A stretch of 64,000 bases of DNA, taken from the IMG/VR virus record IMGVR_UViG_3300045988_176106. One strand, given 5' to 3'. The position numbers and the translations under genes were made by a program. A model generated the notes under the pieces. It ran no database searches. It was not told where the DNA came from and saw only the letters and a list, made by a program, of their open reading frames with translations. Source of the stretch: a virus. Below are positions 11,396-27,302 of the stretch, piece by piece. Every line of letters begins with the position of its first letter. Within the stretch, counting starts at the first letter, position 1.

Positions 11396-11836
11396 TTAAT
11401 TAGACACAATTTCAAGATTCTTTAATATGCCTTTATTAACAATTTTAAGAGTACCAACAATACTGAAAATATACTCACCATCAGCAGTTTTGCCAACTAC
11501 ATAACATTTAAATTTATGGCTATCCCATTGAACAGGAAGCTTTTCTTTAAAAGCCTTCTCAAGTATATTAGTATTAACTGCAGACCAAAGAAATTCTTCT
11601 TCAACAATATCTTTGATTTCAAAAGCATCATGTTGAAGATTTTTACCATCTTCTGTCCAATATATCATAGACCATCTATTAGATTCTTTATTGAATCTGT
11701 ATCCATGAATAACATAATCTTTTTCACAAATATATGGGAAATTTTTTAAATTACAGGTAACTACAGCATAATCGCCATTTTTAAGTAAAACTGTTTGTCC
11801 TACTTTTATATTTGATAAATCAAGTTGTTCTTTCAT
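11396..11836 (-). CDS. Hypothetical protein
   Basis: 146 aa ORF. The antisense ORF 11516..11749 is rejected. Confidence 0.75.
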   Translation of the reverse strand: MKEQLDLSNIKVGQTVLLKNGDYAVVTCNLKNFPYICEKDYVIHGYRFNKESNRWSMIYWTEDGKNLQHDAFEIKDIVEEEFLWSAVNTNILEKAFKEKLPVQWDSHKFKCYVVGKTADGEYIFSIVGTLKIVNKGILKNLEIVSN

Positions 11837-11883
11837 TTTACATCTTTCTAGAAAAGATTAATAAAAATTTAATCAAAAAATAA

Positions 11884-11902
11884 TCGACACATAAAGTGCC
11901 GA
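11884..11902 (-). terminator. Conserved stem-loop family copy
   Basis: AAAAAATAATCGACAC-ataaa-GTGCCGAC, after the stop of 11917..12252. Confidence 0.65.
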
Positions 11903-11916
11903 CTACTATTAAACAA

Positions 11917-12252
11917 TTATTCAGATGCCTTTTTATCAGGCAATTGTTCCAATGCTGTAATTGCGCGATTATTTTTAACACCAACAGCCTTAGACATCTC
12001 AATAGAATGATTGATATGCTGGAATTGCATATCTTCAAAATGAGATTTGTCAATCAGACGGCATAAAGCTTTTGCTTCTTTGCCGGGAACCATATCATTA
12101 ACGCATTCTCGATAGATCATTTTATCATGATCAAGATATGACTCAATCCAATAATTTGAATTGATGTACATACGATTTACAGAATCATCCTTATAAGGAT
12201 TACATGCTGTCAGAGCCAAAGATGCGGCAATTACAATAGCAAATTTTTTCAT
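11917..12252 (-). CDS. Lipoprotein
   Basis: 111 aa. MKKFAIVIAASLALTAC has a signal peptide and an L-T-A-C lipobox. Confidence 0.8.
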   Translation of the reverse strand: MKKFAIVIAASLALTACNPYKDDSVNRMYINSNYWIESYLDHDKMIYRECVNDMVPGKEAKALCRLIDKSHFEDMQFQHINHSIEMSKAVGVKNNRAITALEQLPDKKASE

Positions 12253-12263
12253 TCAAGTCTCCA

Positions 12264-12572
12264 TTATTTGCAAGGTTCATTAAAATTAAGTACAGTATAT
12301 TCTCTTCCGAATTGCTGTACAAAAAGAATTTGTTTGCCATCAATACAAACATTTGTGGCTGTAAATTTATAGCCATCAATAGAGAATTGTGTCTTTGTCC
12401 CTACCAAATGTTTAGTGACGTTTTCAATTTTTACAGGATTATCAATTTTAGGTTTTTTACTTTGCGAATTAGAAGCAAGATAAAACAACAAAATTAAAAA
12501 CCCAATTACTGTTACTACAATACCTACAACAGGACCGATAATATCGCACATAAACTTTTTAAATTTAGACAT
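12264..12572 (-). CDS. Membrane-anchored protein
   Basis: 102 aa. GGAGG Shine-Dalgarno. N-terminal TM IIGPVVGIVVTVIGFLILLFYL. Confidence 0.8.
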   Translation of the reverse strand: MSKFKKFMCDIIGPVVGIVVTVIGFLILLFYLASNSQSKKPKIDNPVKIENVTKHLVGTKTQFSIDGYKFTATNVCIDGKQILFVQQFGREYTVLNFNEPCK

Positions 12573-12610
12573 AGTACACCTCCAATAAAAATAGTTTTAA
12601 TCAAAAAATA

Positions 12611-12630
12611 TTCGACACTATTGTGCCGAA
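12611..12630 (-). terminator. Conserved stem-loop family copy
   Basis: AAAAAATATTCGACAC-tatt-GTGCCGAA, after the stop of 12641..13069. Confidence 0.65.
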
Positions 12631-12640
12631 CATTTTAAAA

Positions 12641-13069
12641 TCAAAACATTGATTTAGGATAGATAGAAAAGTTAAATGATTTAAACTTTTCAAATTCATT
12701 ATGGATGCGACAAAGAATCCAATAAAAGTGTCTTAAACGGCCTTTAGCATTCTTTGAAATATTTTCGCTAGACATAAGGGCTTTTAAATCACATTTTGGA
12801 ATAGGATTATTATTGTCAATACCAAAATATTCAATCATTTTCAAAGATTGGAAATACATACGAATGTTAAAATAATATTTCCTAAATCTATCTGTGATAT
12901 GCATATAATTTGGATTGGGATTAATTAAGTCTGCAGGACTATAATAAACCTTACCAGAGATTTCTTTTTGCTGAGCAAATATAGCATTACCTGTCTTAAT
13001 ATCAGATAAAAATTCTTCATAATTTTGAATATTCAAACGATAGAAATAATTAAATTTTTCAATATTCAT
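12641..13069 (-). CDS. Hypothetical protein
   Basis: 142 aa ORF abutting the upstream gene. Confidence 0.75.
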   Translation of the reverse strand: MNIEKFNYFYRLNIQNYEEFLSDIKTGNAIFAQQKEISGKVYYSPADLINPNPNYMHITDRFRKYYFNIRMYFQSLKMIEYFGIDNNNPIPKCDLKALMSSENISKNAKGRLRHFYWILCRIHNEFEKFKSFNFSIYPKSMF

Positions 13070-13071
13070 TT

Positions 13072-13575
13072 TTATTTGCCTTTCTTAAAATGGGGCCTTA
13101 GATGCTTTTTCATAACAAGGCGAGCCTCATTATCTTTCTTACAAGAAGTCCATTTCCAGTTCCAATCAATTTTACTTTTACGAATAATTTTAACAATACC
13201 CGTCGCAGAAATTGATCCGTAGTGAACTTTAATACCTTGAAAATCTAAATCTTTGGCCATAACTATTTTTAATGGATCCATATAGTAGATTTTACCTTTA
13301 TATTTAAACCTAACCATAATATGATCCCAATTGGTATAATTGATAAGTGATAAAACATTATCATCTGTAAGTTTAAGTTTACGAATCTTAAACTCATCAC
13401 AATAATGATTTCCAACATACCATGTTATTACAACACCTACATTTGAAACGCCTTTTATTTTTAGAAGAAGCTTATAAATAGTGAAGGCAGATTTTCCACA
13501 TCCTCCCTGATTTATAAAATAAAATCTTTCTAACATCTTTTTATTCATTTCTTTGATAGTTTCAATCAAATCCAT
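13072..13575 (-). CDS. Possible papain-fold (C39-like) cysteine peptidase
   Basis: Start re-called at ATG 13575 (MDLIETIKE..., GGAG upstream), 167 aa. NQGGCGKSAFTIY and NWDHIMVRF resemble the Q-x-x-x-CG...H dyad context. The assignment is weak. Confidence 0.4.
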   Translation of the reverse strand: MDLIETIKEMNKKMLERFYFINQGGCGKSAFTIYKLLLKIKGVSNVGVVITWYVGNHYCDEFKIRKLKLTDDNVLSLINYTNWDHIMVRFKYKGKIYYMDPLKIVMAKDLDFQGIKVHYGSISATGIVKIIRKSKIDWNWKWTSCKKDNEARLVMKKHLRPHFKKGK

Positions 13576-13606
13576 GATAGACTCCAAAAATATTTTAATC
13601 AAAAAG

Positions 13607-13628
13607 AAATCGACACTAAGGTCGATTT
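13607..13628 (-). terminator. Conserved stem-loop family copy (variant 3' half)
   Basis: AAATCGAC-actaag-GTCGATTT, a perfect 8-bp stem, after the stop of 13681..13923. Confidence 0.6.
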
Positions 13629-13680
13629 CCAAAAAACTTTAAGATCAAAATATAAATGATATGTCATCAATGAGAAATTA

Positions 13681-13923
13681 TCATTTAGAAATTTTTGACA
13701 AGCTGCCATCCATAACAGCTTTAACGATACCAAAGGTAACATATCCAAAGATTGCCAATACTGCTAATGTTACGAAAAATTCAAGTACGCCTGGGGCATA
13801 CAAAATAACAAAAACGGAAATGCCAAGAATGGCACAAACTTTAGTAAGAGAGATATTGCCATCTTTCTTATAAAGCAAACGAGCAAGTGCAATAGTTGCT
13901 GCACCAATAAAATACTTTTTCAT
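13681..13923 (-). CDS. Small membrane protein
   Basis: 80 aa, two hydrophobic segments, AAGGTG Shine-Dalgarno. Confidence 0.75.
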   Translation of the reverse strand: MKKYFIGAATIALARLLYKKDGNISLTKVCAILGISVFVILYAPGVLEFFVTLAVLAIFGYVTFGIVKAVMDGSLSKISK

Positions 13924-13987
13924 ATTTTACACCTTAAAAGATGGAAACCAACAATAAATAAAGAATATATAAAGTCATGATAAACCT

Positions 13988-14350
13988 TTATGCAAACTTA
14001 CCAATATTTTTATTAGTAAATTTATTTAGCCAATTGGAAATCTTGAATTTGGGTTCATATTCAACCCATTTATAGGTACCATCTTCTTGCTTTTCGTAAC
14101 GAGCATAACCGTAAACCCGCGCGAGAATGAAAAGAGTAACACCAAAAATCAAACCAGTAGCTGCACCAATTACAAAACCAGACATAGTACCAGAAAAACC
14201 ACAAGCCATACCAATCAGCAATGAAAATGCTAAATCAACATAGGCTTCATATCCTAATACACGTTTTAACAACTTCGGCGATGCTTTAGCCAAAATAGAA
14301 ATAATGGCAACACTAGTAACTAGTGAACCAAATACAATAAGCCCAATCAT
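13988..14350 (-). CDS. Membrane protein
   Basis: 120 aa, three hydrophobic segments. Confidence 0.75.
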   Translation of the reverse strand: MIGLIVFGSLVTSVAIISILAKASPKLLKRVLGYEAYVDLAFSLLIGMACGFSGTMSGFVIGAATGLIFGVTLFILARVYGYARYEKQEDGTYKWVEYEPKFKISNWLNKFTNKNIGKFA

Positions 14351-14353
14351 GAC

Positions 14354-14467
14354 TTACCCTTTCTTTTGTAGTGACAAACCTTTAAGGACAGTAAAAGATA
14401 ACCATCCTAAAAACATAATAACAAACAGTCCAGACATATAGACTGAAATAGCAGTTTCAATTCCCAT
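14354..14467 (-). CDS. Small hydrophobic peptide (37 aa), below the track cutoff
   Basis: Hand translation MGIETAISVYMSGLFVIMFLGWLSFTVLKGLSLQKKG*. AAGGA lies 8 nt upstream, and the stop abuts the next start. Confidence 0.45.
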   Translation of the reverse strand: MGIETAISVYMSGLFVIMFLGWLSFTVLKGLSLQKKG

Positions 14468-14512
14468 ATTTAATCCTTTCTTAAAGTGGATATGGACAAA
14501 ACTTAATCAATA

Positions 14513-14538
14513 AAATATCGACACTAAAGTCGATATTT
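14513..14538 (-). terminator. Conserved stem-loop family copy (variant)
   Basis: AAATATCGAC-actaaa-GTCGATATTT, a perfect 10-bp stem, at the downstream (minus-sense) edge of the 1.2-kb ORF-free region. Confidence 0.6.
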
Positions 14539-14539
14539 A

Positions 14540-15750
14540 AATAAAATATTACAGGAATATACATATGCATATATACCCGCGCCACTTATTTCTCTATTGA
14601 TCAATTGTACATAAAATAAAATATACAATAAAAATAGAACAAACATAAAACAATAAAGCAATAATTAAATCTACACTAATCATAATAAAAAACACCTATA
14701 TAAGAATAAACAAATAAAAATACACTACAGGAGTACATAAATACATATACACCTATATAATAAGAATATACAACAAAGGCTATTCACATAGCCTTATTAC
14801 AATATAGTATTTAATCAATACAGGGATAGTTATACATATATAGTAATAGAAATACATTAATATAGGAATACATCTAGTACTGATTTAAATATCTATTTAG
14901 ATACTTTTTACCTGGTACAGCGATCAAAAATATATGTAATACAAGCCACTCTGTGGCTATAGATGTCAAAATAATTACACCTATATAGATACCAGTACAT
15001 ATTTTATAAATACCCTATTGCATTCTTATACTATATATACTATACTTATATATATTGTTAGAGAGTAGTCCTACTGGAGAGACTATAAACTCCTTAAGTG
15101 CATGGAAAGGCATACATATATTAGAATTTATCCCTTTTTATTCTTTATTTCCTGTATCGCATCAGTGCTTGTAGTATTCTTTTTAAAGGGTTCTTTGTCA
15201 ATGTATATTTATTTATACACTACAGAGATATTATACTTATTAGCGGCGTTTTATATCTAATAGGTGTACTATATAAGCAATGCTTGGTTCCTGAATTGGG
15301 CTGTGAAGCTGTAAGGTTACGTCCCCAGCGACATCACGTGGTGTGATGGGTATTAGCATATATAATATACTTGATGTAATCCCTGATAATATACTATTTC
15401 TTATTGTATATATTAGTATATATACTTAGTGAACAACTTAATTTTTAATTGCATCCTTTAAGTAGGAGCGCCCGCCGTATACTTATTTATAGTATTCGGT
15501 AATTTTGTCGTATCTGTACAATCTGTATTACTAATATTACAACACATGTCCCGCCGGCCCATGTGCTATTTTTATATCTGTCTTATATATACTGTATTGT
15601 ACACACTTATATAAACATACTATTGTATTTAATACGCTTATATATGTAAATAAAATGCAGCCAGTACCTCTTGTATTAAAAAATAGGTACTTCTTGTTGT
15701 AATCATTTATTAGTAAAGGGCTCGCTTACGCTCGCCCAGTATTGTATTAC
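14540..15750. other. 1.2-kb ORF-free, TATA-rich region with scattered GC-rich hairpins and short direct repeats
   Basis: No ORF of 60 aa or more. CACCTATATA x3 (14693, 14750, 14978). TACACTACAG x2 (14721, 15216). TATACTTA x4-5 (15045-15480). Hairpins at 14776-14795, 14944-14958, 15332-15348, 15544-15564. Confidence 0.6.
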
Positions 15751-15753
15751 CTT

Positions 15754-16014
15754 CTATATCAGAACAGTAATTAGCTTTCCTGTTAATACAGTTGCTATAT
15801 GTCCTAATACAATAGAGATTAGTATTAGTATTGTGATAAAGATTCGACTATTTTGTCGTTTCTTAAGCCACTTAATCTTATTAGCCGCGGCGGATAGATT
15901 AATTACTATCAGCGCCGTATATACTACTAATCCAATGATGTATAACAATCCAATAGGATTACTTACAATTGTGCTGTATAGCAGGTAATCCCAAACGCTT
16001 CCAAATACAAACAT
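15754..16014 (-). CDS. Membrane protein
   Basis: 86 aa, three hydrophobic segments, GAGG upstream. Confidence 0.75.
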   Translation of the reverse strand: MFVFGSVWDYLLYSTIVSNPIGLLYIIGLVVYTALIVINLSAAANKIKWLKKRQNSRIFITILILISIVLGHIATVLTGKLITVLI

Positions 16015-16024
16015 ACCAATACCT

Positions 16025-16144
16025 CTACATAAAAAGAAACTTAAATAACAAAGTCATTACCGTTTCTAATACATACAATATCCCTATTGTTGATAGTATA
16101 ACAATAATGGCCATAAGAAATGATATAAAATCATATTCTTTCAT
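16025..16144 (-). CDS. Small hydrophobic peptide (39 aa), below the track cutoff
   Basis: Hand translation MKEYDFISFLMAIIVILSTIGILYVLETVMTLLFKFLFM*. It fills the gap between two genes, but the Shine-Dalgarno is weak. Confidence 0.35.
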   Translation of the reverse strand: MKEYDFISFLMAIIVILSTIGILYVLETVMTLLFKFLFM

Positions 16145-16149
16145 GATTG

Positions 16150-16491
16150 TTAACTCAAATTAGTTACGCCAACTAATTTCTCTAAACGCTCTACTCGCTT
16201 TTTAAGCTCTTCAAGTTCGTTATCTAAATTTTTATTGCCGGCCTTTAATTTTAACGTTTGAATAAGAATATCCGTGGTAACATCATATCCTGGATATACA
16301 CTACTTGAACCAACCCAAAGTACTTTACCGACCCTGTCAAATTTAAAAACAGGATCTGTATGACTTTCTTTTACAAACTTGGTACATTTCAATTTTGCAA
16401 TACACATGGGTATATCAGTATCGATAACTTCGTATTCGTTTCCGAATTTATCTACAACGATCTGGCCAACATTGATATCTTTAATATCCAT
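16150..16491 (-). CDS. Hypothetical protein with C-terminal coiled coil
   Basis: Start re-called at ATG 16491 (MDIKDINVGQ..., GGAGG upstream), 113 aa. Confidence 0.7.
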   Translation of the reverse strand: MDIKDINVGQIVVDKFGNEYEVIDTDIPMCIAKLKCTKFVKESHTDPVFKFDRVGKVLWVGSSSVYPGYDVTTDILIQTLKLKAGNKNLDNELEELKKRVERLEKLVGVTNLS

Positions 16492-16528
16492 TTTTATTAC
16501 CTCCAACAAGAATTTAATCATAAAAAGA

Positions 16529-16548
16529 TCCCACTCCTAAAAGTGGGA
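16529..16548 (-). terminator. Intrinsic terminator (symmetric A-run/T-run flanks)
   Basis: TCCCACT-cctaaa-AGTGGGA flanked by AAAAAGA and CCTTTTTTT, after the stop of 16566..18005. Confidence 0.65.
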
Positions 16549-16565
16549 CCTTTTTTTACTACAAA

Positions 16566-18005
16566 TTAAGCAGCAGTTTCTGCTTGTGGACCTTTGTCTA
16601 CAGTACCATCAGCGCCGGAGAGCAATTCATCAACACTTTGTTCTTGATCTTTTGCTTCAGCTTCAGCAGGTTTAGCACCGCGAGCTAAACGTCGTGCACG
16701 TGCAGCTTGTACACCTGTTTGCTCTTTAGGTTTTTCAGAACCTACTGTTTCAATGCTGTTGATATCGATTTCTTCGGCAACTTCAACAGCTTCTACAGGT
16801 GCAGCCAACATGTCGAAGTCTTCAGATACGACAGGAGCGGCAACACCACTACCAGCGCGGTCGAAGATGTATTCAGAAATCACAACATTAGGTACAGTAA
16901 CCCAAGGTTGTCCTTGACCCATAATACGGCTTTCCATAGTTACACGGTTGCCGGATTGGTAAATAATAGCAGGATTGCTAGCGATACCACGTTCAAACGC
17001 TTCAGGGCGAGAGTTAGTGTTACCGCGATTGTTATCGTACAAAGTAGTACGGATAGCAATCTTATTACCTTGTGGGTTAGTTACCTCTACAATGCGGCGA
17101 GTATATTGGGTCTCGCTGTTTTGGGTAACTTGGATACCACAACCAAAGTCAGAATGCAGAGGATCAACATCAGCCATATTGACTGTTGCTTTACCTTGCA
17201 TAAACAGACCTGCAATTACACGGCTTGCAGGGAACAAGGTGTTTTCCCACAAGTCTTTAGCAGTGCTGCCAACACGGCCGTAACCAGCACCCAATTCTGG
17301 CAATGCGATCGGCAAAAGGGTGTCGCGGTTAGCATAAATCGCTACACCTTTGAACAGTTTTTCTTCTTTAACCAACTTTTGAACTTGTGCCAAATATTCT
17401 TTGTACAGTTCTTCCATACGTTGATTGATGGCATTAACATTCATTGCCTTTTCAATAGTACGGATTTCACCGGTATTGTGAACATATTGGCTGTTCATTG
17501 TAGACAGGTTTTCTTTTTGGGACTGCAAACCCAAAATTGCAAGAGCATTACGATTGATGACATCATACTCTGCTTGTTTTACTGCGTCGGATGGGCATAC
17601 AAAAGTGTATGTCCATTGGCCTTGAACTGACATTGCATTGAATACATCGGAACGCAAAGCAGTTTCCATAGCCCAGTGGTTATGGTCGCCAACAGGAGTG
17701 TTGACGAAATCTACAGCACCTTTTTGGGCTACAACCCAATGATCGTCTGCATTTGCCATAATCCAACCGGTGGCACGTGCATTACGAGTGTTGCTGTATG
17801 GTGCTGGGACCATAACGTTTTGAGTACGGTATACGCTGAATACTGGACCATTATCAGTATCGCGGCGGTTAATGCTGTAAATCACGCGACGATTTTCAGG
17901 GCGTGGCATGTATACAGTGCCAGATACTTCATGGAAGTCTTCAGGGTTGTTACGTACAACAGAGATGATGCGGGATGGATTGATTTCGAAGTTTTCTTGG
18001 TTCAT
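16566..18005 (-). CDS. Abundant-looking non-structural protein of unknown function with a disordered acidic/Ala-rich C-terminal tail
   Basis: 479 aa. Visibly G+C-richer than neighbours. AAGGA Shine-Dalgarno. Flanked by terminators. The last ~90 aa are low-complexity (AEEIDINS...ARARRLARGAKPAEAEAKDQEQ...). Confidence 0.85.
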   Translation of the reverse strand: MNQENFEINPSRIISVVRNNPEDFHEVSGTVYMPRPENRRVIYSINRRDTDNGPVFSVYRTQNVMVPAPYSNTRNARATGWIMANADDHWVVAQKGAVDFVNTPVGDHNHWAMETALRSDVFNAMSVQGQWTYTFVCPSDAVKQAEYDVINRNALAILGLQSQKENLSTMNSQYVHNTGEIRTIEKAMNVNAINQRMEELYKEYLAQVQKLVKEEKLFKGVAIYANRDTLLPIALPELGAGYGRVGSTAKDLWENTLFPASRVIAGLFMQGKATVNMADVDPLHSDFGCGIQVTQNSETQYTRRIVEVTNPQGNKIAIRTTLYDNNRGNTNSRPEAFERGIASNPAIIYQSGNRVTMESRIMGQGQPWVTVPNVVISEYIFDRAGSGVAAPVVSEDFDMLAAPVEAVEVAEEIDINSIETVGSEKPKEQTGVQAARARRLARGAKPAEAEAKDQEQSVDELLSGADGTVDKGPQAETAA

Positions 18006-18082
18006 TTTAAGATCCTTTTTTAAAAGTAGAATTAAAGTGGGCGAATACCCGTTGGTGAGGACACCATTATCCTCAATAAAAA

Positions 18083-18111
18083 ATCGACACTTCCTGTGAA
18101 GAAGTGCCGAT
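18083..18111 (-). terminator. Conserved stem-loop family copy (extended stem)
   Basis: AAAAAATCGACACTTC-ctgtgaa-GAAGTGCCGAT, 11 bp with one G-U on minus RNA. Confidence 0.65.
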
Positions 18112-18119
18112 CTTTATTT

Positions 18120-18392
18120 TTACTTGCAACTTTTGATGTACAAGTCTGCCAGGTTACTACTGCGAGGAACAAACACGACTTGCGGGTTATTTATACTAGT
18201 AACATTATTTAAGCTGTCACTAGCAACAATATCCCCATCGCTATTTTGCAAAGCGAATTCAATTGCTGCCTTTTCGGCGATATTGTTATCTTTCGCCTTA
18301 ATACGCTTGCAAGACCTTTTGCTATTGTTAGCAGAGATGTATCCGATTATGAATACATCCCCACTAACTCTAGATGCGTCAGCGTATATCAT
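18120..18392 (-). CDS. Mini RNase H-like domain protein
   Basis: 90 aa. YADAS...G...NNIAEKAAIEFAL...VASDS...PRSSNLADLY follows the D-E-D...N-x-x-AD pattern of small RNase H-like domains. ATGA overlap with the upstream gene. Confidence 0.5.
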   Translation of the reverse strand: MIYADASRVSGDVFIIGYISANNSKRSCKRIKAKDNNIAEKAAIEFALQNSDGDIVASDSLNNVTSINNPQVVFVPRSSNLADLYIKSCK

Positions 18393-19318
18393 GCTGCAGA
18401 ATCTTCTTCAGCAGTCATAGCCATCATGCCTTTACGGATGATGCCTTTAGCACCACTTGCACCAAAATCTTTGGTTGTTGCAGCGTCCAACAGATCAATA
18501 ATGCAAGACAGTGCCAGCGCAGATACTTTAATAATGGAACCAATTACTTTCTTGATACCATTATAAACATAAAACACCGCACCTTTGGCAAAGTCCCACA
18601 ACAGACCGCCTACTTTAGTCAGACCAACCATAATAGAGCCAGTCCAACCTTTCTTAACTGCATCAGGGGTTTTATCAATAGTCCCCTTAACAGATTCGAC
18701 AATCGCTTCAGCCTCTTCATGAGTGCTGACATTCATTTTCAGTTCAGAAAGAATGTCTTTAGCAGCTTCATTTACTGCAGGCATATTGCATTGAGCAATA
18801 CTGATACCTGTGATATCGCTCAAACCAAAATGGGCGATAGCACGGATATATTTGCGCACTTCAACATACAAGCGCACTTTGTTTTCTTCTGTATTATTCG
18901 TATCCAATTCAATATTAGCACGAATAACTGCTGAATGCAGCAAATGAATACTGGATTCGTCCAGTTTCTCGATTTCTTTCATTTCTGCATCGAGGACTTC
19001 TTGAGATTTGTAGTTTTGAGCGTTTACGGTTTTCATGATGGTTTCCTTGTAATTGGTGAAAATTGAATCGGCAACATTGCCAAGTTTAGTTTCTGGTTTA
19101 GATTCATCCATAACATCGTATGGATCCGTATCGATTATACCTTTCTGAATATAATCGTGTGCAACTGTTTTGTACTCAATAAAGCCGGCAATAACCTTTT
19201 CTTCATTGAGTTTTTTAACTGACTGATCAATAGCAGCGGCATAACCTTTAGCGGCATTCTTAATACCGTTTGCAATATTATGCAACTGCTTTCTCGCAGC
19301 TTTTGCTTTGTCGGCCAT
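18389..19318 (-). CDS. Hypothetical protein (helical, G+C-richer)
   Basis: 309 aa, AAGGAA Shine-Dalgarno. Antisense ORFs 18374..18934 and 18246..18566 are rejected. Confidence 0.8.
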   Translation of the reverse strand: MADKAKAARKQLHNIANGIKNAAKGYAAAIDQSVKKLNEEKVIAGFIEYKTVAHDYIQKGIIDTDPYDVMDESKPETKLGNVADSIFTNYKETIMKTVNAQNYKSQEVLDAEMKEIEKLDESSIHLLHSAVIRANIELDTNNTEENKVRLYVEVRKYIRAIAHFGLSDITGISIAQCNMPAVNEAAKDILSELKMNVSTHEEAEAIVESVKGTIDKTPDAVKKGWTGSIMVGLTKVGGLLWDFAKGAVFYVYNGIKKVIGSIIKVSALALSCIIDLLDAATTKDFGASGAKGIIRKGMMAMTAEEDSAA

Positions 19319-19354
19319 ATCATTTCCTTTCTATCAGATGGCTTTCAACAAAAA

Positions 19355-19388
19355 ATCGACACTAAACGTTAATTCGTCTAGTGCCGAT
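19355..19388 (-). terminator. Conserved stem-loop family copy (long loop)
   Basis: AAAAAATCGACACTA-(14 nt)-TAGTGCCGAT. Confidence 0.6.
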
Positions 19389-19395
19389 GGTCAGA

Positions 19396-19770
19396 TTAGT
19401 CTTCTTTGGTCAACTTGTCAGTATGAACCATGAACTCTTTCTGTTTTGTTACTGCAATTTTCAGCAGTGGCAAACATGTTACCATTGCTGTGAATCCAAC
19501 ATCAATCCATGCATGGACAACTTCGCCGAACTTATCGAAGAAGCCAACAGTCCAACCTTCGCTGATATTAATAACGACAGTACCTGATTTCTTTTCATCA
19601 ACAGATACTGTATCATTGCCAACGAATTCTTTGACTTTTACTTTCGCAAATTTCGGATCCTTGCCGAGAATGATGCACATCTTTTCGGCTGTTTTCTTTG
19701 CGACACCAGAAATCTTTGCAGAGAAACAATTGATTGCGGATACTTCTTTAGCGGTGAAAACGATTTTCAT
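19396..19770 (-). CDS. Hypothetical protein
   Basis: Start re-called at ATG 19770 (MKIVFTAKEV..., AAGGA upstream), 124 aa. Confidence 0.75.
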   Translation of the reverse strand: MKIVFTAKEVSAINCFSAKISGVAKKTAEKMCIILGKDPKFAKVKVKEFVGNDTVSVDEKKSGTVVINISEGWTVGFFDKFGEVVHAWIDVGFTAMVTCLPLLKIAVTKQKEFMVHTDKLTKED

Positions 19771-19816
19771 TTTGTTGTCCTTTCTTAAGACGTGGTTAAA
19801 AAATATAATCAAAAAG

Positions 19817-19851
19817 AAGTCGACACTTAACCTATAGTGGTGTGGCGACTT
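19817..19851 (-). terminator. Conserved stem-loop family copy (bulged)
   Basis: Minus RNA AAGUCG(CC)CACAC...GUGUCGACUU. Confidence 0.5.
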
Positions 19852-19936
19852 TCACTACGAAGAGCGTACGGAGAAAATAATCCCCGTCGACACTAATCCT
19901 GTGATAAAAACTTAATATACAACTTCCTTCAAAAAA

Positions 19937-19960
19937 GAATCGACACTAAAGCGCCGACTC
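19937..19960 (-). terminator. Conserved stem-loop family copy
   Basis: GAATCGACAC-taaa-GCGCCGACTC. 10 bp on minus RNA with three G-U pairs, so it cannot form on the plus-sense RNA. Confidence 0.6.
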
Positions 19961-19969
19961 TACAGTAAC

Positions 19970-20203
19970 TTAATGAACAATGCTACAAACTTTTCGGATA
20001 TCAGTTATAGTATCGACACCAGCACCATCAGACTGATACAGTAGCTCCCCATCTTTATCGAGTACTTGAACATACCCGAATCCGCAGATAACGGAGTTGC
20101 CATTATCTGAGTTCATTACACTTTTTAATTCAGGATTATTAATAGCTTCCTGAATTTTGTTTTTAAGCAGGACATCAAAGTCCTTTTTATCTACAAAAAA
20201 CAT
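19970..20203 (-). CDS. Hypothetical protein
   Basis: The track start is TTG 20239, next to the hairpin. Re-called at ATG 20203 (MFFVDKKDF..., GGAGAAGGG upstream), 77 aa. Confidence 0.7.
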   Translation of the reverse strand: MFFVDKKDFDVLLKNKIQEAINNPELKSVMNSDNGNSVICGFGYVQVLDKDGELLYQSDGAGVDTITDIRKVCSIVH

Positions 20204-20243
20204 ATTGATTCCCTTCTCCGTATAAAAGGTTTTACTCAAAAAA

Positions 20244-20268
20244 GAATCGACACTATATGTGCCGACTC
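20244..20268 (-). terminator. Conserved stem-loop family copy
   Basis: AAAAAAGAATCGACAC-tatat-GTGCCGACTC. Confidence 0.65.
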
Positions 20269-20273
20269 TTAAT

Positions 20274-20630
20274 TTATTTTCCTTCAGCTTCCAGTTCTTC
20301 GATAACCTCGTTATGGATATCGATATTGATCACATGCTCGCAGCTTGCAACTAAACGACGGAAGCTTTGTTCAGGAGTAATATCAGGGTGATTAGCCCAA
20401 TCGTCCTCTCTGTCACGTTCTTCACGGTAATCAAGCACATCGTGGAACAGGTCTGCACTACTGAACCCTTTGAGGTAGTCTTTGTACTCCTCAATATTTT
20501 TGTGCCCATCTTCTTTCAGTTCAGCGATGAAGTTTTCCTGAGCCTGTTTCATCGCAGCATCTTCAAATGCCTTACGTTCATCAGCATTGTGCCAAATTTG
20601 AAACATGTTTTTAGTTGGGATGAATTCCAT
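20274..20630 (-). CDS. Highly acidic small protein
   Basis: 118 aa, AGGAGG Shine-Dalgarno, D/E-rich throughout. Confidence 0.8.
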   Translation of the reverse strand: MEFIPTKNMFQIWHNADERKAFEDAAMKQAQENFIAELKEDGHKNIEEYKDYLKGFSSADLFHDVLDYREERDREDDWANHPDITPEQSFRRLVASCEHVINIDIHNEVIEELEAEGK

Positions 20631-20677
20631 TTTGGGGCCTCCTATAGCCGTGAAATTTAAAAAATAATCAAAAAAGA

Positions 20678-20711
20678 ATCGACACCGAAGCTATAAAGCT
20701 AAGGTGCCGAT
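20678..20711 (-). terminator. Conserved stem-loop family copy (two-tier stem)
   Basis: ATCGACACC-ga-AGCT-ataa-AGCT-aa-GGTGCCGAT. Confidence 0.6.
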
Positions 20712-20748
20712 AAAGTCCCTTACATGAAGATATGAAATCTTCAAAAAA

Positions 20749-20778
20749 GAATCGACACTAAAAATTTAGGCCGATTCT
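20749..20778 (-). terminator. Conserved stem-loop family copy (variant)
   Basis: AAAAAAGAATCGACAC-(loop)-GGCCGATTCT, after the stop of 20786..20989. Confidence 0.55.
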
Positions 20779-20785
20779 GTATTTT

Positions 20786-20989
20786 TTAATAGAAGCACTG
20801 GTCCTCATATCTGTCAAATTTTACTGATCCGTCCTCACTTATATCAAATATAACAGAGAACTTATCATCAATATGATCGACGATAGCTGAGTAGCATTGT
20901 ATCTTTACTGAGACGCCATCTTGTCGATGCATATCAGATTTAAATTCTTCAACAGAGTTGTAATGCATTTTAAATTTAAATGAAATCAT
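20786..20989 (-). CDS. Hypothetical protein
   Basis: 67 aa, GGAG upstream. Confidence 0.7.
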   Translation of the reverse strand: MISFKFKMHYNSVEEFKSDMHRQDGVSVKIQCYSAIVDHIDDKFSVIFDISEDGSVKFDRYEDQCFY

Positions 20990-21024
20990 GATGATTCTCC
21001 AGAAACAAAGTTGTCAAAAAGAAA

Positions 21025-21048
21025 TCGACACATATATTAATGTGCCGA
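21025..21048 (-). terminator. Conserved stem-loop family copy
   Basis: AAAAAGAAATCGACACA-tatattaa-TGTGCCGA. Confidence 0.65.
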
Positions 21049-21428: not shown

Positions 21429-21460
21429 GTGTCGACACTCACCCTTACGAGTGCCGGCAC
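21429..21460 (-). terminator. Conserved stem-loop family copy (12-bp variant)
   Basis: GTGTCGACACTC-acccttac-GAGTGCCGGCAC. Confidence 0.55.
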
Positions 21461-21600: not shown

Positions 21601-24600
21601 TTAGAATCCCATGTCTTCCAATACTTCAGCTTGCTCAGCAGCAGTTGCAGACTCAGCACGTTCAGCTGCCACGTTGATGGCTTGAATAACCTTCAGCGAT
21701 TTAGAAGCTTTCTCAGCAGCTTCAAAGAAGTAGCCGATAGCACCATAAATGGAAGCTTTAGGAGCGGTAGAATGCTTCACGCCACGAGACTCAACTGTTT
21801 TGAAGAATCCATCAAATGTACGGCCGATGCTCATAGTTGCATCAACATAGTCTTTGATTTCAGCTTCTGTACCCTCAATGCTAGAATAAACAACTGAGTT
21901 AAGATTAGCCATGTATGAACCAAAGCCCATACGAGATAACGCTAAACCAGTTGCACGTACACCATAATGGTTGTAGTAGTTGTACTCACCATCAGAGTAC
22001 ACTTTACCTAACTGAACCATATTGGAGTGCTCAATGATACGAGGAGCTTTTTCTGCAATAATTGTAGCAATACGACGCGCTACTTCTTTATTGCCGATAG
22101 TAGACTCGATAGCTTCTTCCCAGGCATCTGCCAAAGAAATAGAGTCATCGTGTGCATTACGCTCAGATGCACTGAACAGATACATCATATCAATCAATGA
22201 GTATCCGCGGTTCTCGTGTTTCATTTGGCTAATAGCACCGTTTTGTACTGCCACACCCATGCTGGCAATAGCAATACGTGCTTCCTCTTTAGTCAGGCCA
22301 TCTTTTAATGCAGTCATGGCTTCAAACAGAGGAATGCTTTGTACAAGAGCATTGGTATACTTACCAGTGTCTTGTTTTGCCTTAACAAGTTTCTCAACAC
22401 CAGCTTGGAATTCTTCCACTGGATAGCATTTAATAGTGCTATCAGTAATAATATCCAAACCTTTCAGGAGAGACTCTTCTTCATCAGCCACATATGCAGC
22501 CTGATACGCACCGATAAGATTATCTTTGCCCAGAGTGTGTTCTGCTGTCCAGGTTTCATATCCTTCCAAACCTTTAGCGAAAAAGACGGTAGCACGGTCT
22601 CCGTCAAAGTCATCTTGGTTAGATAATGCCAGCATTGGAGGAATGCGCAATACAGATTCTTCCAAGATTCCGAAAATCCCGTATTCTTCTGTACTAGTCC
22701 AGAATGGGGTACCAGATTTGGCTGACACCAACTTAAATGACTGCAGCATCAGTTCTGGGTATTTAATATAACCCAGCTGACCATCCTCTTGAATACCCTT
22801 GCGGACAGTCTTATTAGTTGTGTATACATTTACAAGATCCTTTGTTTGTGGAACCAGCACCATATTGGCATTGCCAGTCATACGCATTTTAGTAATGCGA
22901 GCGCCCAAAAACAATTGTTCCAAAGTCAGGATGTGTTTAGCATATGTCAACACAGCACCTTTAGTGTTTTGGAACTTGATCATTTGATAGATGGACATCA
23001 AAGTGCCAACAAGTTTACCACCGATTAAGCCCTCAGACAAATCTTCCTCATTAGGAAGAATGATTTGGCCCTTCAGTTTATTCCAACCTGGGAACACAAA
23101 ATCGTAACCGGCAAACTCAATAGTAAATCCTGTATTGATCAGACCTACCCAACCAATAGAATCATCACCATTCAAAAGACGATCGATTGTATTAGCGATC
23201 ATTTGTTTGTCCTTACCGTATGATTTGAAGTTTTCAGCCTTCAATGTACCATTGCCCGCATAGGCAATAGTGTTATCAAACAGTTCTTTCAAGATAAACT
23301 TGATTTCACCCTCTTCGTAAATACGAGGAGAGAGATCTTTAGTCATCACTGAGGACTCAACAAGGTATGAGTTGTCGATGTTTGCTTTCAGGAATGACAC
23401 CAAAGCCTCTTCGCCAAATTGATCCTTAATAGAATCAAGGGTCAGCAGAGAGATACGTCCCACTTTCTTGGCTTTAGTAATCAAACCTTGACGTTTCATA
23501 TCCAGAAGCGCCTCACCAACCTTGAAATCAGGGTTAGTTTTAATGCTTTCAACAAATGACTTCATTACAGATGTAGCATTCAATGCTTCTACCTCCTCAT
23601 CTGTAAGGCTTTCTTCATCAATTTGTTCGACACCGAGTAATTCAAACTCTGCCTCATCTATTGAAGCATGTTTCTTAATCTCCTCTTGTTGAGACAGAAA
23701 CTTGTCAGTATACTCCCAACCCTCAAGAGCATAGAATGAAGTTGCATGCAGCTCCTCATCAATAACGATTGCCTTGTAAGTTAATGCGCCAATCTTAACA
23801 TCTCTAACAAAAGAAGCCAGCTCATTATTTACTTGTGTACGGAACTCAGCATCGTTGTACAAACTAATGATAAAGTCCTTCAGAGTTTTACCATTATTTA
23901 CAAGGTTAAATCCAAGACCAACTGATTTTGATTTCAGTTTACCAGAGATATAATCTACTCCCAACTCTTTTGAGGCAGATTCAAAGCTGTCATCAATGTA
24001 AGCTGCAACACCTTTAACATGGTTCTCAGAGATAACACGCATAGCACCATATTTCAGGTACTCCTCTTTTGAAGCATGAATGGCGCCACCAACAATACTG
24101 GTGTACACGCTATCCTCAAAGCGGTCATAGTCTTTAGGCATATCAACACCTACGATAACTGCAACTTTCTTAGTGCCGATGCTAACAGACTTATGATCTG
24201 ATGGATTCAGACCAAACCTTGCAATAGATTTGGTTGCATCATTGATGCTGTAAGTTGTATCACCATCAAAAACGGCAGCCATAGAGTCTACAGCGCCCTG
24301 ACTAAATGCACCAATAGATGCTAATTTGGCATTGATATCCGGACTCAAGTTCATAGAATCCAACTCTCCAGATTCAATCTCCCAACCCTGTAAGCGATAC
24401 TGCGCTAATTGTTGGCGCGGCATTACATGAGAAACAGGTGCGTAACGTAAGCCAGGACGTTGACGCATAGCGTCTAAGATGTCCTCGATCTTGGTTTTGC
24501 TATCTGAAGACAGTTTAATTACGAACATAAAGAACGCCTCCGCAGAGGTAATAATCTCTTTGCGGAACACGGTTTCTTTTCTTTTCTCTACGACAACCAC

Positions 24601-24951
24601 TTCTTTATTCAGCATAAAGAATTTGTTGCAGAAGCTTTCATATCCTGAGCACAGGGTACGATTGATCGCATAATTGCGACCCTCAGCAAGTTTAAGTGTA
24701 GACAATAATTGAAGTGCTGCCTGACTATTTTTGCCCTTCATAAAGGTAATAAATGCTTTACCCTTTTTAGAGACAGACTTAATGCGCATTGCTACTTCAG
24801 TACCGTGTACAGAGATCTTAACGTCTCTATGCTCTGTAGTGGCTACAGTGCCAATAGCTGATACCAGTTGATTTGCCACATCTTTAATCGCATCTTTACG
24901 ATCAGAGGTCAAAGAGTTGAATAAGTTGATTGTGTTAATAGTGTTAGCCAT
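21601..24951 (-). CDS. Single-chain two-barrel (beta-like + beta'-like) DNA-dependent RNA polymerase, copy 2
   Basis: 1116 aa. GAMRVISENHVKGVAAY...LGVDYISGKLKSKSVGLG is beta-like (24007-24021). KYPELMLQSF...LRIPPMLALSNQDDFDGDRATVF is the beta'-like NADFDGD equivalent (22597-22614). AAGGA Shine-Dalgarno. Confidence 0.8.
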   Translation of the reverse strand: MANTINTINLFNSLTSDRKDAIKDVANQLVSAIGTVATTEHRDVKISVHGTEVAMRIKSVSKKGKAFITFMKGKNSQAALQLLSTLKLAEGRNYAINRTLCSGYESFCNKFFMLNKEVVVVEKRKETVFRKEIITSAEAFFMFVIKLSSDSKTKIEDILDAMRQRPGLRYAPVSHVMPRQQLAQYRLQGWEIESGELDSMNLSPDINAKLASIGAFSQGAVDSMAAVFDGDTTYSINDATKSIARFGLNPSDHKSVSIGTKKVAVIVGVDMPKDYDRFEDSVYTSIVGGAIHASKEEYLKYGAMRVISENHVKGVAAYIDDSFESASKELGVDYISGKLKSKSVGLGFNLVNNGKTLKDFIISLYNDAEFRTQVNNELASFVRDVKIGALTYKAIVIDEELHATSFYALEGWEYTDKFLSQQEEIKKHASIDEAEFELLGVEQIDEESLTDEEVEALNATSVMKSFVESIKTNPDFKVGEALLDMKRQGLITKAKKVGRISLLTLDSIKDQFGEEALVSFLKANIDNSYLVESSVMTKDLSPRIYEEGEIKFILKELFDNTIAYAGNGTLKAENFKSYGKDKQMIANTIDRLLNGDDSIGWVGLINTGFTIEFAGYDFVFPGWNKLKGQIILPNEEDLSEGLIGGKLVGTLMSIYQMIKFQNTKGAVLTYAKHILTLEQLFLGARITKMRMTGNANMVLVPQTKDLVNVYTTNKTVRKGIQEDGQLGYIKYPELMLQSFKLVSAKSGTPFWTSTEEYGIFGILEESVLRIPPMLALSNQDDFDGDRATVFFAKGLEGYETWTAEHTLGKDNLIGAYQAAYVADEEESLLKGLDIITDSTIKCYPVEEFQAGVEKLVKAKQDTGKYTNALVQSIPLFEAMTALKDGLTKEEARIAIASMGVAVQNGAISQMKHENRGYSLIDMMYLFSASERNAHDDSISLADAWEEAIESTIGNKEVARRIATIIAEKAPRIIEHSNMVQLGKVYSDGEYNYYNHYGVRATGLALSRMGFGSYMANLNSVVYSSIEGTEAEIKDYVDATMSIGRTFDGFFKTVESRGVKHSTAPKASIYGAIGYFFEAAEKASKSLKVIQAINVAAERAESATAAEQAEVLEDMGF

Positions 24952-25113
24952 GATTATGTCCTTTCTTAAGACAAATATTAAAATAAAGGTTTATAGTAAG
25001 GCTGTACTAATAAACCCGTGAAGGAAGCTGTTTCGTACTTTTGTACTAATCAGTATGGATACACATCCATATACAGGAGCAGTTTATTGTCACGCTCAGG
25101 ACATTAAGACAAA

Positions 25114-27300: not shown

Positions 27301-27302
27301 TT

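What the first reader, a model, noticed from the sequence alone, without database searches (positions are those of the whole stretch)
21601..24951. A second, highly divergent single-chain two-barrel RNAP in the same genome block
The 1116-aa protein has the same architecture as copy 1.
- The beta-like block is GAMRVISENHVKGVAAY...VDYISGKLKSKSVGLG.
- The beta'-like block is KYPELMLQSFKLV...LRIPPMLALSNQDDFDGDRATVF, with an almost canonical DFDGD at 22597-22614.
- By eye it shares little sequence with copy 1 outside these blocks.

Two same-sized paralogous minimal RNAPs suggest a division of labour, for example virion-delivered early versus middle/late enzymes, or different promoter classes. A heterodimer is also possible. 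Both genes end with a compound family-type terminator.
Basis: partly seen in the sequence, partly recalled or inferred. Interest (0 to 1): 0.7.

Follow-up and report, generated by a model that had tools for sequence, protein, structure and literature searches.

The report
Second divergent two-barrel phage RNA polymerase
An uncultured ~180-kb gut phage with a contractile tail encodes two very distantly related single-chain RNA polymerases of the cellular ("two-barrel") type; having two is a known phage strategy, but neither protein family is recognised by current annotation databases.

Summary
ORF 21601-24951 (-) encodes a 1116-aa protein carrying the quoted motifs.

It has no hit in Pfam, PHROGs, NCBIfam, PDB sequences or GenBank phages. 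Three lines of evidence make it a single-chain two-barrel RNA polymerase:
- The catalytic signatures are invariant across 15 homologues that average about 20% identity. These are R305/K313/K340 in an N-terminal beta-like barrel, and K730-x-P732 followed 48 residues later by D781-x-D783-G784-D785 in a C-terminal beta'-like barrel.
- Foldseek matches of its AlphaFold model are led by QDE-1, then beta' subunits and phage or poxvirus RNAPs.
- Profile-profile homology to "copy 1" (3864-7250) is significant (98.5%, E 3e-15). Copy 1's high-confidence model matches beta, beta' and crAss gp66.

Both genes lie on the same contigs, 13-15 kb apart on one strand. That arrangement persists in a lineage where the proteins are only 31% and 45% identical. 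Both are under strong purifying selection (dN/dS about 0.05).

A division of labour between the two enzymes is plausible by analogy with P23-45 and phiKZ, but I could not test it. Which enzyme, if either, is packaged in the virion is unknown.

Verdict: a new member of a known kind. Extras worth following are a lineage-conserved wobble hairpin with a T-run between the two genes, and similar C-terminal tails on both enzymes.

The parts
21601..24951 (-). Gene for RNAP copy 2 (1116 aa), a single-chain two-barrel RNA polymerase
   Evidence: ORF. 49 close homologues at 84-93% identity on contigs of about 180 kb. Only 15 representatives among 1.84 billion proteins. AF2 model with Foldseek hits to QDE-1, beta' and phage RNAPs. 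dN/dS 0.05-0.08.
23911..24048 (-). Beta-like barrel (DPBB-B) catalytic motif, residues 302-347: G-x-x-R305-x-x-S-x-x-x-x-K313-G-V ... K340-S-x-x-x-G
   Evidence: K313 is invariant; R305, G302 and K340 are at least 90% conserved. Aligns in register with copy 1 residues 384-441 (hhalign 75%, E 2.5e-5). pLDDT is 85-95 across 260-410.
22582..22764 (-). Beta'-like barrel (DPBB-A), residues 730-790: K730-Y-P732, then 48 residues, then D781-F-D783-G784-D785
   Evidence: K730, P732, D781, D783, G784 and D785 are invariant. Fits the published diagnostic [RK]xPx{20,100}DxDxD (PMC10770324 Supplementary Data 4). In-register local alignments to E. coli beta' NADFDGD, YonO, and P23-45 gp64 and gp96; these are not significant on their own.
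22219..22419 (-). Long helices after the beta'-like barrel (residues 845-911) carrying invariant K859 (A-K-x-x-x-G-x-x-T), Q903 and K911 (I/M-K-H). Candidate bridge-helix / trigger-loop region
   Evidence: AF2 helices H845-879 and H888-911. Invariant columns. The same motifs align with copy 1 (AKNAVGPGTN ... AIKH) in the hhalign hit. The bridge-helix assignment is an inference from position.
21604..21642 (-). Disordered acidic/hydrophobic C-terminal tail of copy 2 (...AEVLEDMGF)
   Evidence: Low pLDDT. Resembles the copy 1 tail ...SEVMDTFDAIGF. Tails look alike within lineages: P0052 ...EVPVTMDV and P0072 ...DVPVSMDI score 32, against 20 or less for every other cross pair.
24990..25009 (-). 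Invariant 20-nt block TAGTACAGCCTTACTATAAA, about 40 nt upstream of the copy 2 start codon. Candidate promoter or 5' element
   Evidence: Identical in four related loci, including the divergent L006 whose flanks differ. Unique in the window. Function not tested.
21433..21456 (-). Family-type hairpin plus T-run downstream of copy 2 (CGGCAC-N12-GTGTCG ACACTTTTAT). A longer variant hairpin lies at about 21530-21575
3864..7250 (-). Gene for RNAP copy 1 (1128 aa), the paralogous single-chain two-barrel RNAP
   Evidence: AF2 pLDDT 86, pTM 0.83. Foldseek hits: Pol III second-largest subunit, Taq beta and Pfu Rpo2 (prob 1.0), beta' chains, and crAss phi14:2 gp66 (prob 0.91). hhalign to the copy 2 family 98.5%, E 3e-15. 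dN/dS 0.04-0.055.
5922..6101 (-). Copy 1 beta-like barrel motif, residues 384-443 (G-N-A-R391-I-T-S-Q-T-G-L-K399-G-V ... V-D-I-V ... K435-G-K-M-N)
   Evidence: R391, G397, K399 and K435 are invariant in 23 sequences. In-register alignment to E. coli beta GRHGNKGV...VDIVLNPLGVPSRMN; not significant alone.
4725..4907 (-). Copy 1 beta'-like barrel, residues 782-842 (R782-N-P784 ... D838-N-D840-G-D842)
   Evidence: R782, P784 and D840 are at least 90% conserved. The hhalign alignment runs through this region.
11349..21047 (-). Array of 11-13 conserved-sequence hairpin plus T-run elements in the intergenic gaps between the two RNAP genes: (T/C)CGGCAC-N3..20-GTGTCGA-TT(C)TTTTTTGA. Candidate terminators or terminator-promoter cassettes of the phage transcription system
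   Evidence: 13 hits against 1.7 expected. 11 hits against 0.1 in shuffles, all on the minus strand. They sit 40-57 nt upstream of the next start codon. Present in relatives L003-L006. Present as the variant CCGGCAC..GTGTCGG-TTCTTTTATGG in the distant lineage L007.

Best explanation
The 1116-aa product of 21601-24951 (-) is an active, single-chain, DNA-dependent RNA polymerase of the two-barrel (double-psi beta-barrel) superfamily.

An N-terminal beta-like barrel supplies the basic residues R305, K313 and K340 that hold the substrate and transition-state phosphates. A C-terminal beta'-like barrel supplies the Mg2+-binding triad D781, D783 and D785. Long helices after that barrel probably act as bridge helix and trigger loop.

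It is an ancient paralogue of the 1128-aa enzyme encoded 14 kb downstream on the same strand (copy 1). Both are kept by this clade of ~180-kb myoviruses because they transcribe different gene sets, meaning temporal or promoter classes. This follows the documented virion/non-virion or early/late split of other phages with two two-barrel RNAPs.

Shown here: the ORF, the conserved catalytic signatures, the fold, the paralogy, the co-occurrence of the two genes, and purifying selection on both.

Inferred: catalytic activity, DNA as the template, the division of labour, and which enzyme acts first.
For: - Motifs are invariant in a family with 20% mean identity. They fit the published [RK]xPx{20,100}DxDxD filter and the 'two basic residues plus DxDxD' definition (PMC7824862).
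- Copy 2 AF2 model: the cores 220-420 and 590-900 have pLDDT 70-95. The six best PDB matches are QDE-1 chains (E 2e-4, prob 0.98). The next matches are almost all beta' or largest subunits, P23-45 gp96 and phiKZ nvRNAP.
- BFVD matches include ME3 gp152, a copy-1 family member (E 3.6e-7), and nudivirus and poxvirus RNAPs.
- hhalign between the copy 2 and copy 1 families: 98.5%, E 3e-15 over 300 columns that include DxDGD, AKxxxGxxTN and IKH. N-terminal halves: 75%, E 2.5e-5, falling exactly on the beta motif.
- Copy 1 model (pLDDT 86) matches beta-type and beta'-type subunits and crAss gp66.
- Both genes sit on the same IMG/VR contigs. The same order is kept in a lineage with 31% and 45% identity.
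- dN/dS is 0.05-0.08 for copy 2 and 0.04-0.055 for copy 1.
- Precedent for two diverged two-barrel RNAPs with distinct promoters in one phage: PMC10770324.
Against: - No sequence-level match to any curated RNAP family, nor to YonO, P23-45 gp64 or gp96, or E. coli beta or beta'.
- The whole-chain copy 2 model is only moderate (pLDDT 63.6). Foldseek TM-scores are low (0.1-0.2) and E-values modest, so the fold evidence for copy 2 alone is suggestive rather than decisive.
- There are no expression, virion or activity data.
- No promoter classes could be defined.
- The best structural match, QDE-1, also uses RNA templates, so template specificity is open.
Confidence: 0.85

Rival explanations
1. Copy 2 is a two-barrel polymerase but not a transcriptase of phage genes. 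It could act as an RNA-dependent RNA polymerase (like QDE-1), or as a primer-making or other specialised nucleic-acid polymerase for replication or anti-defence.
For: The best PDB fold matches are QDE-1 complexes with RNA or DNA templates. The superfamily also contains RdRPs and PolD DNA polymerases (PMC7824862; PMC10770324). Copy 1 alone could be the transcriptase.
Against: Every characterised phage member of the single-chain clade (YonO, crAss gp66, P23-45 gp64 and gp96) is a DNA-dependent RNAP (PMC5467207, PMC10770324). Paired RNAPs in phages are transcriptases for different gene classes. Copy 2 keeps the same post-barrel helices as copy 1.
Confidence: 0.08
2. The two proteins work together as an obligate heterodimer or complex, rather than as independent enzymes for different gene classes.
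For: The two genes always co-occur and keep their order. Their C-terminal tails look alike within a lineage. That could reflect binding to each other or to one scaffold.
Against: Each chain carries both barrels and a full set of catalytic residues. Known single-chain two-barrel RNAPs are active alone (PMC5467207). The two loci have very different synonymous divergence between the same genomes (dS 0.08 against 0.76, and 0.58 against 1.85). That argues against tight co-inheritance of interacting surfaces.
Confidence: 0.05
3. Copy 2 is a catalytically dead relic or a structural or virion protein that merely keeps an RNAP-like fold.
For: There is no biochemical evidence. The N-terminal 220 and C-terminal 140 residues are poorly modelled and lineage-specific.
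Against: The aspartate triad, the K-x-P motif and the beta-barrel basic residues are invariant across proteins only 17-30% identical. dN/dS is about 0.06.
Confidence: 0.03

Closest known systems
Thermus phage P23-45 gp64 (non-virion) and gp96 N-terminal domain (virion, fused to the tape measure protein): two single-chain two-barrel RNAPs in one phage (PMC10770324; PDB 8h2n)
   Same: - Two very divergent single-chain two-barrel RNAPs in one phage, thought to come from an ancient duplication.
- Barrel order is beta-like then beta'-like.
- [RK]xP...DxDxD motif is present.
- gp96 appears among the fold matches of copy 2.
   Different: - No significant sequence similarity (E 0.03-0.2).
- Here both enzymes are free-standing proteins of about 1100 aa. 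Neither is fused to a tape measure protein.
- Both genes lie in the non-structural arm of a ~180-kb myovirus.
- Roles and promoters are unknown.
Neurospora QDE-1 and crAss-like phage phi14:2 gp66 (single-chain two-barrel polymerases; PDB 7y7s, 2j7n, 6vr4)
   Same: - Best PDB fold matches: QDE-1 for copy 2 and gp66 among the top hits for copy 1.
- Both barrels are in one chain, joined by a long connector.
   Different: - 8-12% identity in the structural alignments.
- No sequence-profile match.
- gp66 is a 2180-aa virion protein with DFDID. QDE-1 is a eukaryotic RNAi enzyme.
- The connector here is about 200-270 residues, against about 140.
YonO of Bacillus prophage SPbeta (PMC5467207)
   Same: A single chain of about 100 kDa. 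Homology to cellular RNAP is limited to a few catalytic residues in the two barrels. It is the phage's own transcriptase for a gene class.
   Different: hhalign against YonO is not significant (E 0.25-0.37). SPbeta has one such enzyme, this phage has two. YonO-like proteins occur in Firmicutes genomes, whereas neither family here was found in 185,579 species genomes.
Acinetobacter jumbo phage vB_AbaM_ME3 gp152 + gp154 (annotated hypothetical)
   Same: A true sequence homologue of copy 1 (29% identity, 95% coverage, E 1e-65). The gp152 model is the second-best BFVD match of the copy 2 model.
   Different: The ME3 gene is split by an endonuclease gene. No copy-2-family member was detectable in ME3 or in any GenBank phage. 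It is not annotated as an RNAP, and a 2021 survey listed no RNAP outside groups 1 and 3 of the jumbo phages (PMC7824862).
Multisubunit virion and non-virion RNAPs of phiKZ/AR9-type jumbo phages
   Same: Two paralogous two-barrel enzymes per genome, dividing early from middle/late transcription. phiKZ nvRNAP appears among the fold matches.
   Different: Those enzymes are split into four or five polypeptides with the beta and beta' barrels on separate chains. Here each enzyme is a single chain.

Membership tests
Two-barrel (double-psi beta-barrel) RNA polymerase superfamily | A beta'-type barrel carrying the Mg2+-binding DxDxD triad, preceded by [RK]xP at 20-100 residues | tested here: met
   K730-Y-P732, then 48 residues, then D781-F-D-G-D785. 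All are invariant in 15 homologues. The motif definition comes from PMC10770324 Supplementary Data 4.
Two-barrel (double-psi beta-barrel) RNA polymerase superfamily | A second, beta-type barrel supplying two conserved basic residues to the active site | tested here: met
   K313 is invariant; R305 and K340 are at least 90% conserved. They align in register with copy 1 R391/K399/K435, and copy 1 aligns with E. coli beta GRHGNKGV...PSRM (not significant alone). The definition comes from PMC7824862.
Two-barrel (double-psi beta-barrel) RNA polymerase superfamily | Overall fold resembling solved two-barrel polymerases | tested here: met
   - Copy 2 model: QDE-1 E 2.2e-4, prob 0.98, followed by beta' and largest subunits.
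- Copy 1 model: beta-type subunits prob 1.0, beta', and gp66 prob 0.91.
- Caveat: global TM-scores are 0.1-0.25, and the copy 2 model has pLDDT 63.6.
Two-barrel (double-psi beta-barrel) RNA polymerase superfamily | Template-dependent RNA synthesis that depends on the aspartate triad | not testable with these tools
   Needs purified protein and D-to-N mutants, as was done for YonO (PMC5467207).
Single-chain clade (both barrels in one polypeptide, beta-like first) | Both barrels in one chain, in the order DPBB-B, connector, DPBB-A | tested here: met
   The beta-like motif is at residues 302-347 and the beta'-like motif at 730-790 of a single uninterrupted ORF. The same order holds in copy 1, at 384-443 and 782-842.
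YonO-like family | Detectable sequence similarity to YonO beyond the catalytic motif | tested here: not met
   hhalign of the family profiles against YonO gives E 0.37 for copy 2 and 0.25 for copy 1. Profiles of the YonO family itself were not available.
P23-45-type vRNAP/nvRNAP families | Detectable sequence similarity to gp64 or gp96 | tested here: not met
   hhalign E 0.03-0.18, covering only the DxDGD segment.
Cellular-type multisubunit RNAP beta/beta' (Pfam RNA_pol_Rpb1/Rpb2 domains) | A match to the curated Rpb1 or Rpb2 domain models | tested here: not met
   No Pfam or NCBIfam hit for either protein, for 13 copy-2 relatives or for 23 copy-1 family members.
Virion-packaged RNAP (vRNAP) versus non-virion RNAP | Presence of the protein in purified virions, and early transcription that is independent of protein synthesis | not testable with these tools
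   The phage is uncultured. Neither gene lies in the structural module (31.5-64 kb).

The most novel reading that the evidence does not exclude
The two RNAPs are the core of a self-contained phage transcription system with two further components.

(a) Shared docking tail. Both enzymes would bind one phage-encoded partner through a co-evolving acidic/hydrophobic C-terminal tail. The partner could be a sliding clamp, in analogy with T4 gp45 (from memory), or a capsid-targeting receptor.

(b) Sequence-specific hairpin signal. The hairpin with a conserved G.T wobble, followed by a T-run, is kept across lineages whose RNAPs are only about 31-45% identical. It would be a sequence-specific signal, either terminator or hairpin promoter, read by one of these enzymes rather than acting as a generic intrinsic terminator.
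Probability: 0.2. Interest if true: 0.7.

Novelty: new member of a known kind. Interest (0 to 1): 0.45.

Why it matters
Single-chain two-barrel RNAPs are the simplest relatives of cellular RNA polymerase. They inform models of how transcription machines and eukaryotic RNAi polymerases arose.

This pair adds two sequence families that no curated library recognises. One of them has only about 15 representative clusters among 1.8 billion proteins.

The finding shows that a widespread clade of human-gut ~180-kb myoviruses probably transcribes itself independently of the host enzyme. The same now applies to the cultured Acinetobacter phage ME3, whose homologue is annotated as hypothetical. That gives an immediate annotation fix and an experimentally tractable entry point.

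The conceptual advance is modest, because phages with two two-barrel RNAPs are already documented.

Tried and rejected
- **Direct family searches.** Pfam, PHROGs, NCBIfam, PDB sequence search by phmmer and by profile, and tblastn against GenBank phages all returned nothing for copy 2.
- **Profile re-search of the 5.8-billion protein set.** It returned only close relatives because the candidate list was saturated.
- **The search for related loci with alignments.** It failed for lack of conserved 7-mers.
- **GTDB genome scans.** They found no relatives, so there is no host or prophage clue.
- **hhalign of the family profiles against single reference sequences.** YonO, gp64, gp96, RpoB and RpoC were not significant. 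I therefore claim no membership in those families.
- **Searches for promoters.**
  - Sigma-70-like sites are not enriched (13 found against 20 expected).
  - CTTAAGAAAGGA is only an RBS-region motif with 4 copies.
  - The conserved block upstream of copy 2 is unique in the window, so no promoter class could be defined.
- **A literature search for HOLDH** was swamped by unrelated matches.
- **Rejected idea: a crAss-like phage.** The structural module has a tail sheath, so this is a myovirus.
- **Rejected idea: copy 2 evolves faster as a protein.** Its dN/dS equals that of copy 1. It is the locus, dS included, that is more diverged.
Full report
**What is there**

The window comes from a tailed phage.
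- The + strand from 31.5 kb onward encodes large terminase (36098-38050), portal (41222-43006), major head protein (45584-46807) and tail sheath (58697-60943).
- Close homologues of the target protein sit on metagenomic contigs of 176-186 kb.
- The left arm (1-27 kb) is transcribed leftward and is full of small ORFs with no known function.
- In that arm lie ORF 21601-24951 (-), 1116 aa (copy 2), and ORF 3864-7250 (-), 1128 aa (copy 1).

**Sequence searches**

Copy 2 is invisible to curated resources.
- Pfam, PHROGs, NCBIfam, PDB sequences and 50,697 GenBank phage records gave no hit.
- An exhaustive HMMER search of 1.84 billion representative proteins found only 15 relatives at E <= 1e-3. Identities fall from 86% straight to 30% and below.
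- None of those relatives has a Pfam domain.
- A profile built from them still finds nothing in the PDB by sequence.

**Catalytic signatures**

The 15-sequence alignment has a mean column identity of 20%.
- The invariant columns are K313, P621, K730, P732, D781, D783, G784, D785, Y820, E824, K859, Q903 and K911.
- G302, R305 and K340 are nearly invariant.

This is the pattern that defines two-barrel RNA polymerases:
- One barrel supplies a DxDxD triad for Mg2+, preceded by [RK]xP. The filter [RK]xPx{20,100}DxDxD is used in PMC10770324 Supplementary Data 4.
- The other barrel supplies two basic residues (PMC7824862).
- The beta-like motif (302-347) precedes the beta'-like motif (730-790), as in other single-chain members.

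**Fold**

- An AlphaFold2 model of copy 2 built on the 15-sequence alignment is moderate overall (pLDDT 63.6). It is confident in the two cores: 220-420 at pLDDT 80-95, and 590-900 at 70-87.
- Against the PDB, the six best Foldseek matches are QDE-1 chains (E 2e-4 to 3e-3, prob up to 0.98).
- They are followed almost exclusively by the largest subunits of bacterial, plant Pol IV and poxvirus RNAPs, by P23-45 gp96 RNAP and by phiKZ nvRNAP.
- Against predicted viral structures, the top matches include Acinetobacter phage ME3 gp152 (E 3.6e-7), a 'minor tail protein' of a metagenomic siphovirus, and nudivirus and poxvirus RNAPs.
- Global TM-scores are low. The fold evidence for copy 2 is therefore supportive, not decisive on its own.

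**Relationship to copy 1**

- BLASTP sees nothing between the two proteins.
- The profile-profile comparison of the two family alignments is significant: 98.5% probability, E 3e-15, 300 columns. It links copy 2 residues 607-928 to copy 1 residues 617-1011, running through DxDGD, AKxxxGxxTN and IKH.
- The N-terminal halves align exactly on the beta-barrel motif (75%, E 2.5e-5).
- Copy 1 has more diverse relatives and gives a high-confidence model (pLDDT 86, pTM 0.83).
- That model matches second-largest (beta-type) subunits of Pol III, Thermus and Pyrococcus RNAPs at probability 1.0. It also matches beta' chains and crAss phage gp66.
- Copy 1 has a true homologue in the cultured jumbo phage vB_AbaM_ME3. 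There the gene is split by an endonuclease gene and annotated as hypothetical.
- The two proteins are thus ancient paralogues, and both are two-barrel RNAPs.

**Are both kept and used?**

- Both genes are on the same IMG/VR contigs. Paired identities to the window (copy 2 / copy 1) are 93%/99%, 86%/94% and 86%/94%.
- A distant lineage carries a copy-2-like protein (P0051, 31% identity) and a copy-1-like protein (P0068, 45% identity).
- There, the DNA downstream of the first overlaps the DNA upstream of the second collinearly. The window is collinear with it at protein level, with the same spacing of about 13-15 kb on one strand.
- dN/dS is 0.05-0.08 for copy 2 and 0.04-0.055 for copy 1.
- Neither is a decaying duplicate.
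- One oddity: between the same genome pairs, the copy 2 locus has 3-9 times the synonymous divergence of the copy 1 locus. This coincides with a 40% GC block at 16-28 kb, against about 30% elsewhere. It suggests mosaic ancestry.

**Mechanism and roles**

- By homology, each enzyme should catalyse Mg2+-dependent RNA synthesis at the interface of its two barrels.
- Two diverged two-barrel RNAPs in one phage are documented for P23-45 and for phiKZ/AR9-type phages. One enzyme is delivered with the virion for (pre-)early genes and the other is made later, each with its own promoters. A survey found many more such genomes (PMC10770324; PMC7824862).
- That is the most likely logic here as well.
- Nothing in the sequence tells which enzyme is packaged, or whether either is. 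Both genes lie outside the structural module, and I could not define promoter classes.
- A heterodimer is unnecessary, because each chain is catalytically complete.

**Candidate cis and trans partners (partly followed up)**

Hairpin elements:
- The gaps between the two RNAP genes carry 11-13 copies of a hairpin of conserved sequence, (T/C)CGGCAC-loop-GTGTCGA, followed by a T-run.
- All copies are on the coding strand, 40-57 nt before the next start codon.
- The stem contains a G.T wobble, so it can form only in the sense strand or the RNA.
- The same core flanks copy 1 and follows copy 2.
- It is present in close relatives. In the distant lineage it appears as CCGGCAC...GTGTCGG-TTCTTTTATGG, with a compensatory change in the outer pair and the core retained.
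- Sequence conservation across that distance suggests specific recognition, not just a generic terminator.

Upstream block: a 20-nt block upstream of copy 2 is invariant among relatives.

C-terminal tails:
- Both RNAPs end in disordered acidic/hydrophobic tails that look alike within a lineage.
- One pair is strikingly similar: EVPVTMDV and DVPVSMDI score 32, against 20 or less for all other cross pairs.
- That pairing rests only on the two proteins coming from the same sequencing project.
- A shared docking partner is a hypothesis, not a result.

**Comparison with known families**

- Membership of the two-barrel superfamily and of its single-chain clade is met on every sequence and fold criterion I could test.
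- Membership of the YonO, P23-45 or cellular beta/beta' families is not met at sequence level.
- The copy 2 family has no cultured representative.
- Neither family occurs in 185,579 species-representative genomes.

**Verdict**

The finding is real and correctly interpreted. It is a new and currently unannotatable pair of members of a known kind of system. It is of moderate interest, mainly as an annotation gain and as an entry point to the transcription strategy of an abundant clade of uncultured gut phages.

Noticed in passing
window 11349-21456 (- strand); variants at 3818-3848 and 7285-7310; L003-L006; L007 13523-22640: A family of conserved-sequence hairpins, (T/C)CGGCAC-N3..20-GTGTCGA, followed by TT(C)TTTTTTGA. 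The stem has a G.T wobble. All copies are on the coding strand in intergenic gaps, 40-57 nt upstream of the next start codon. A distant phage lineage carries the variant CCGGCAC..GTGTCGG-TTCTTTTATGG, with a compensatory change in the outer pair. It could be a sequence-specific terminator or a terminator-promoter cassette.
   Followed up: partly
window 21604-21642 and 3867-3900 (- strand); proteins P0051/P0068 and P0052/P0072: The two RNAPs end in similar disordered acidic/hydrophobic C-terminal peptides: ...EVLEDMGF and ...EVMDTFDAIGF. The tails differ between phage lineages but look alike within one, for example EVPVTMDV and DVPVSMDI. Some copy-1 relatives end in LSLFSMF or LSFLSMF, which resembles clamp-binding motifs (from memory). 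This may be a shared docking peptide.
   Followed up: partly
window 30582-30952 (+): A full-length match to the Rfam family HOLDH RNA (RF02997): 322 bits, just above the gathering score of 319, E 2e-86. It lies in the 1.1-kb non-coding gap just upstream of the structural gene block.
   Followed up: no
window 9053-9479 (-) and 8139-8212 (-): A phage-encoded permuted (two-piece type) tmRNA with tag ANDNVYMVRAAA (Rfam RF04321 118 bits, RF01849 105 bits; also found by ARAGORN). A tRNA-Ile with anticodon TAT is nearby. Both lie in a 2.2-kb stretch without ORFs.
   Followed up: no
window 16000-28000 versus flanks; loci L003/L005/L006 versus L016/L018/L019: A block of about 40% GC containing copy 2, flanked by DNA of about 30% GC. 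Between the same genome pairs, the copy 2 locus has 3-9 times higher synonymous divergence than the copy 1 locus (dS 0.76 against 0.08, and 1.85 against 0.58), with equal dN/dS. This suggests recombination or mosaic ancestry of that block.
   Followed up: partly
window 14351-15753: A 1.4-kb stretch with no ORF of 60 aa or more on the coding strand. It lies between the early-like small genes and contains one copy of the hairpin family (about 14497-14544). Its function is unknown.
   Followed up: no
L002 (Acinetobacter phage vB_AbaM_ME3, record 222114-226849): The ME3 homologue of copy 1 is annotated as two hypothetical proteins (gp152, gp154) separated by an endonuclease gene (gp153). It looks like an RNAP gene interrupted by a homing-endonuclease-bearing intron or insertion, and it is not annotated as an RNAP.
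   Followed up: partly
window 7321-7752 (-); L010, L022, L023: A cell-wall hydrolase (Pfam Hydrolase_2, SleB-like) gene sits immediately upstream of copy 1. The same pairing is seen in the relatives examined. Together with strong GGAG-type ribosome-binding sites, it hints at a Firmicutes host.
   Followed up: no
window 934-3095 (-): Four consecutive ORFs of 173-189 aa with no family match, possibly tandem paralogues, lie next to an RNase H gene (481-921).
   Followed up: no
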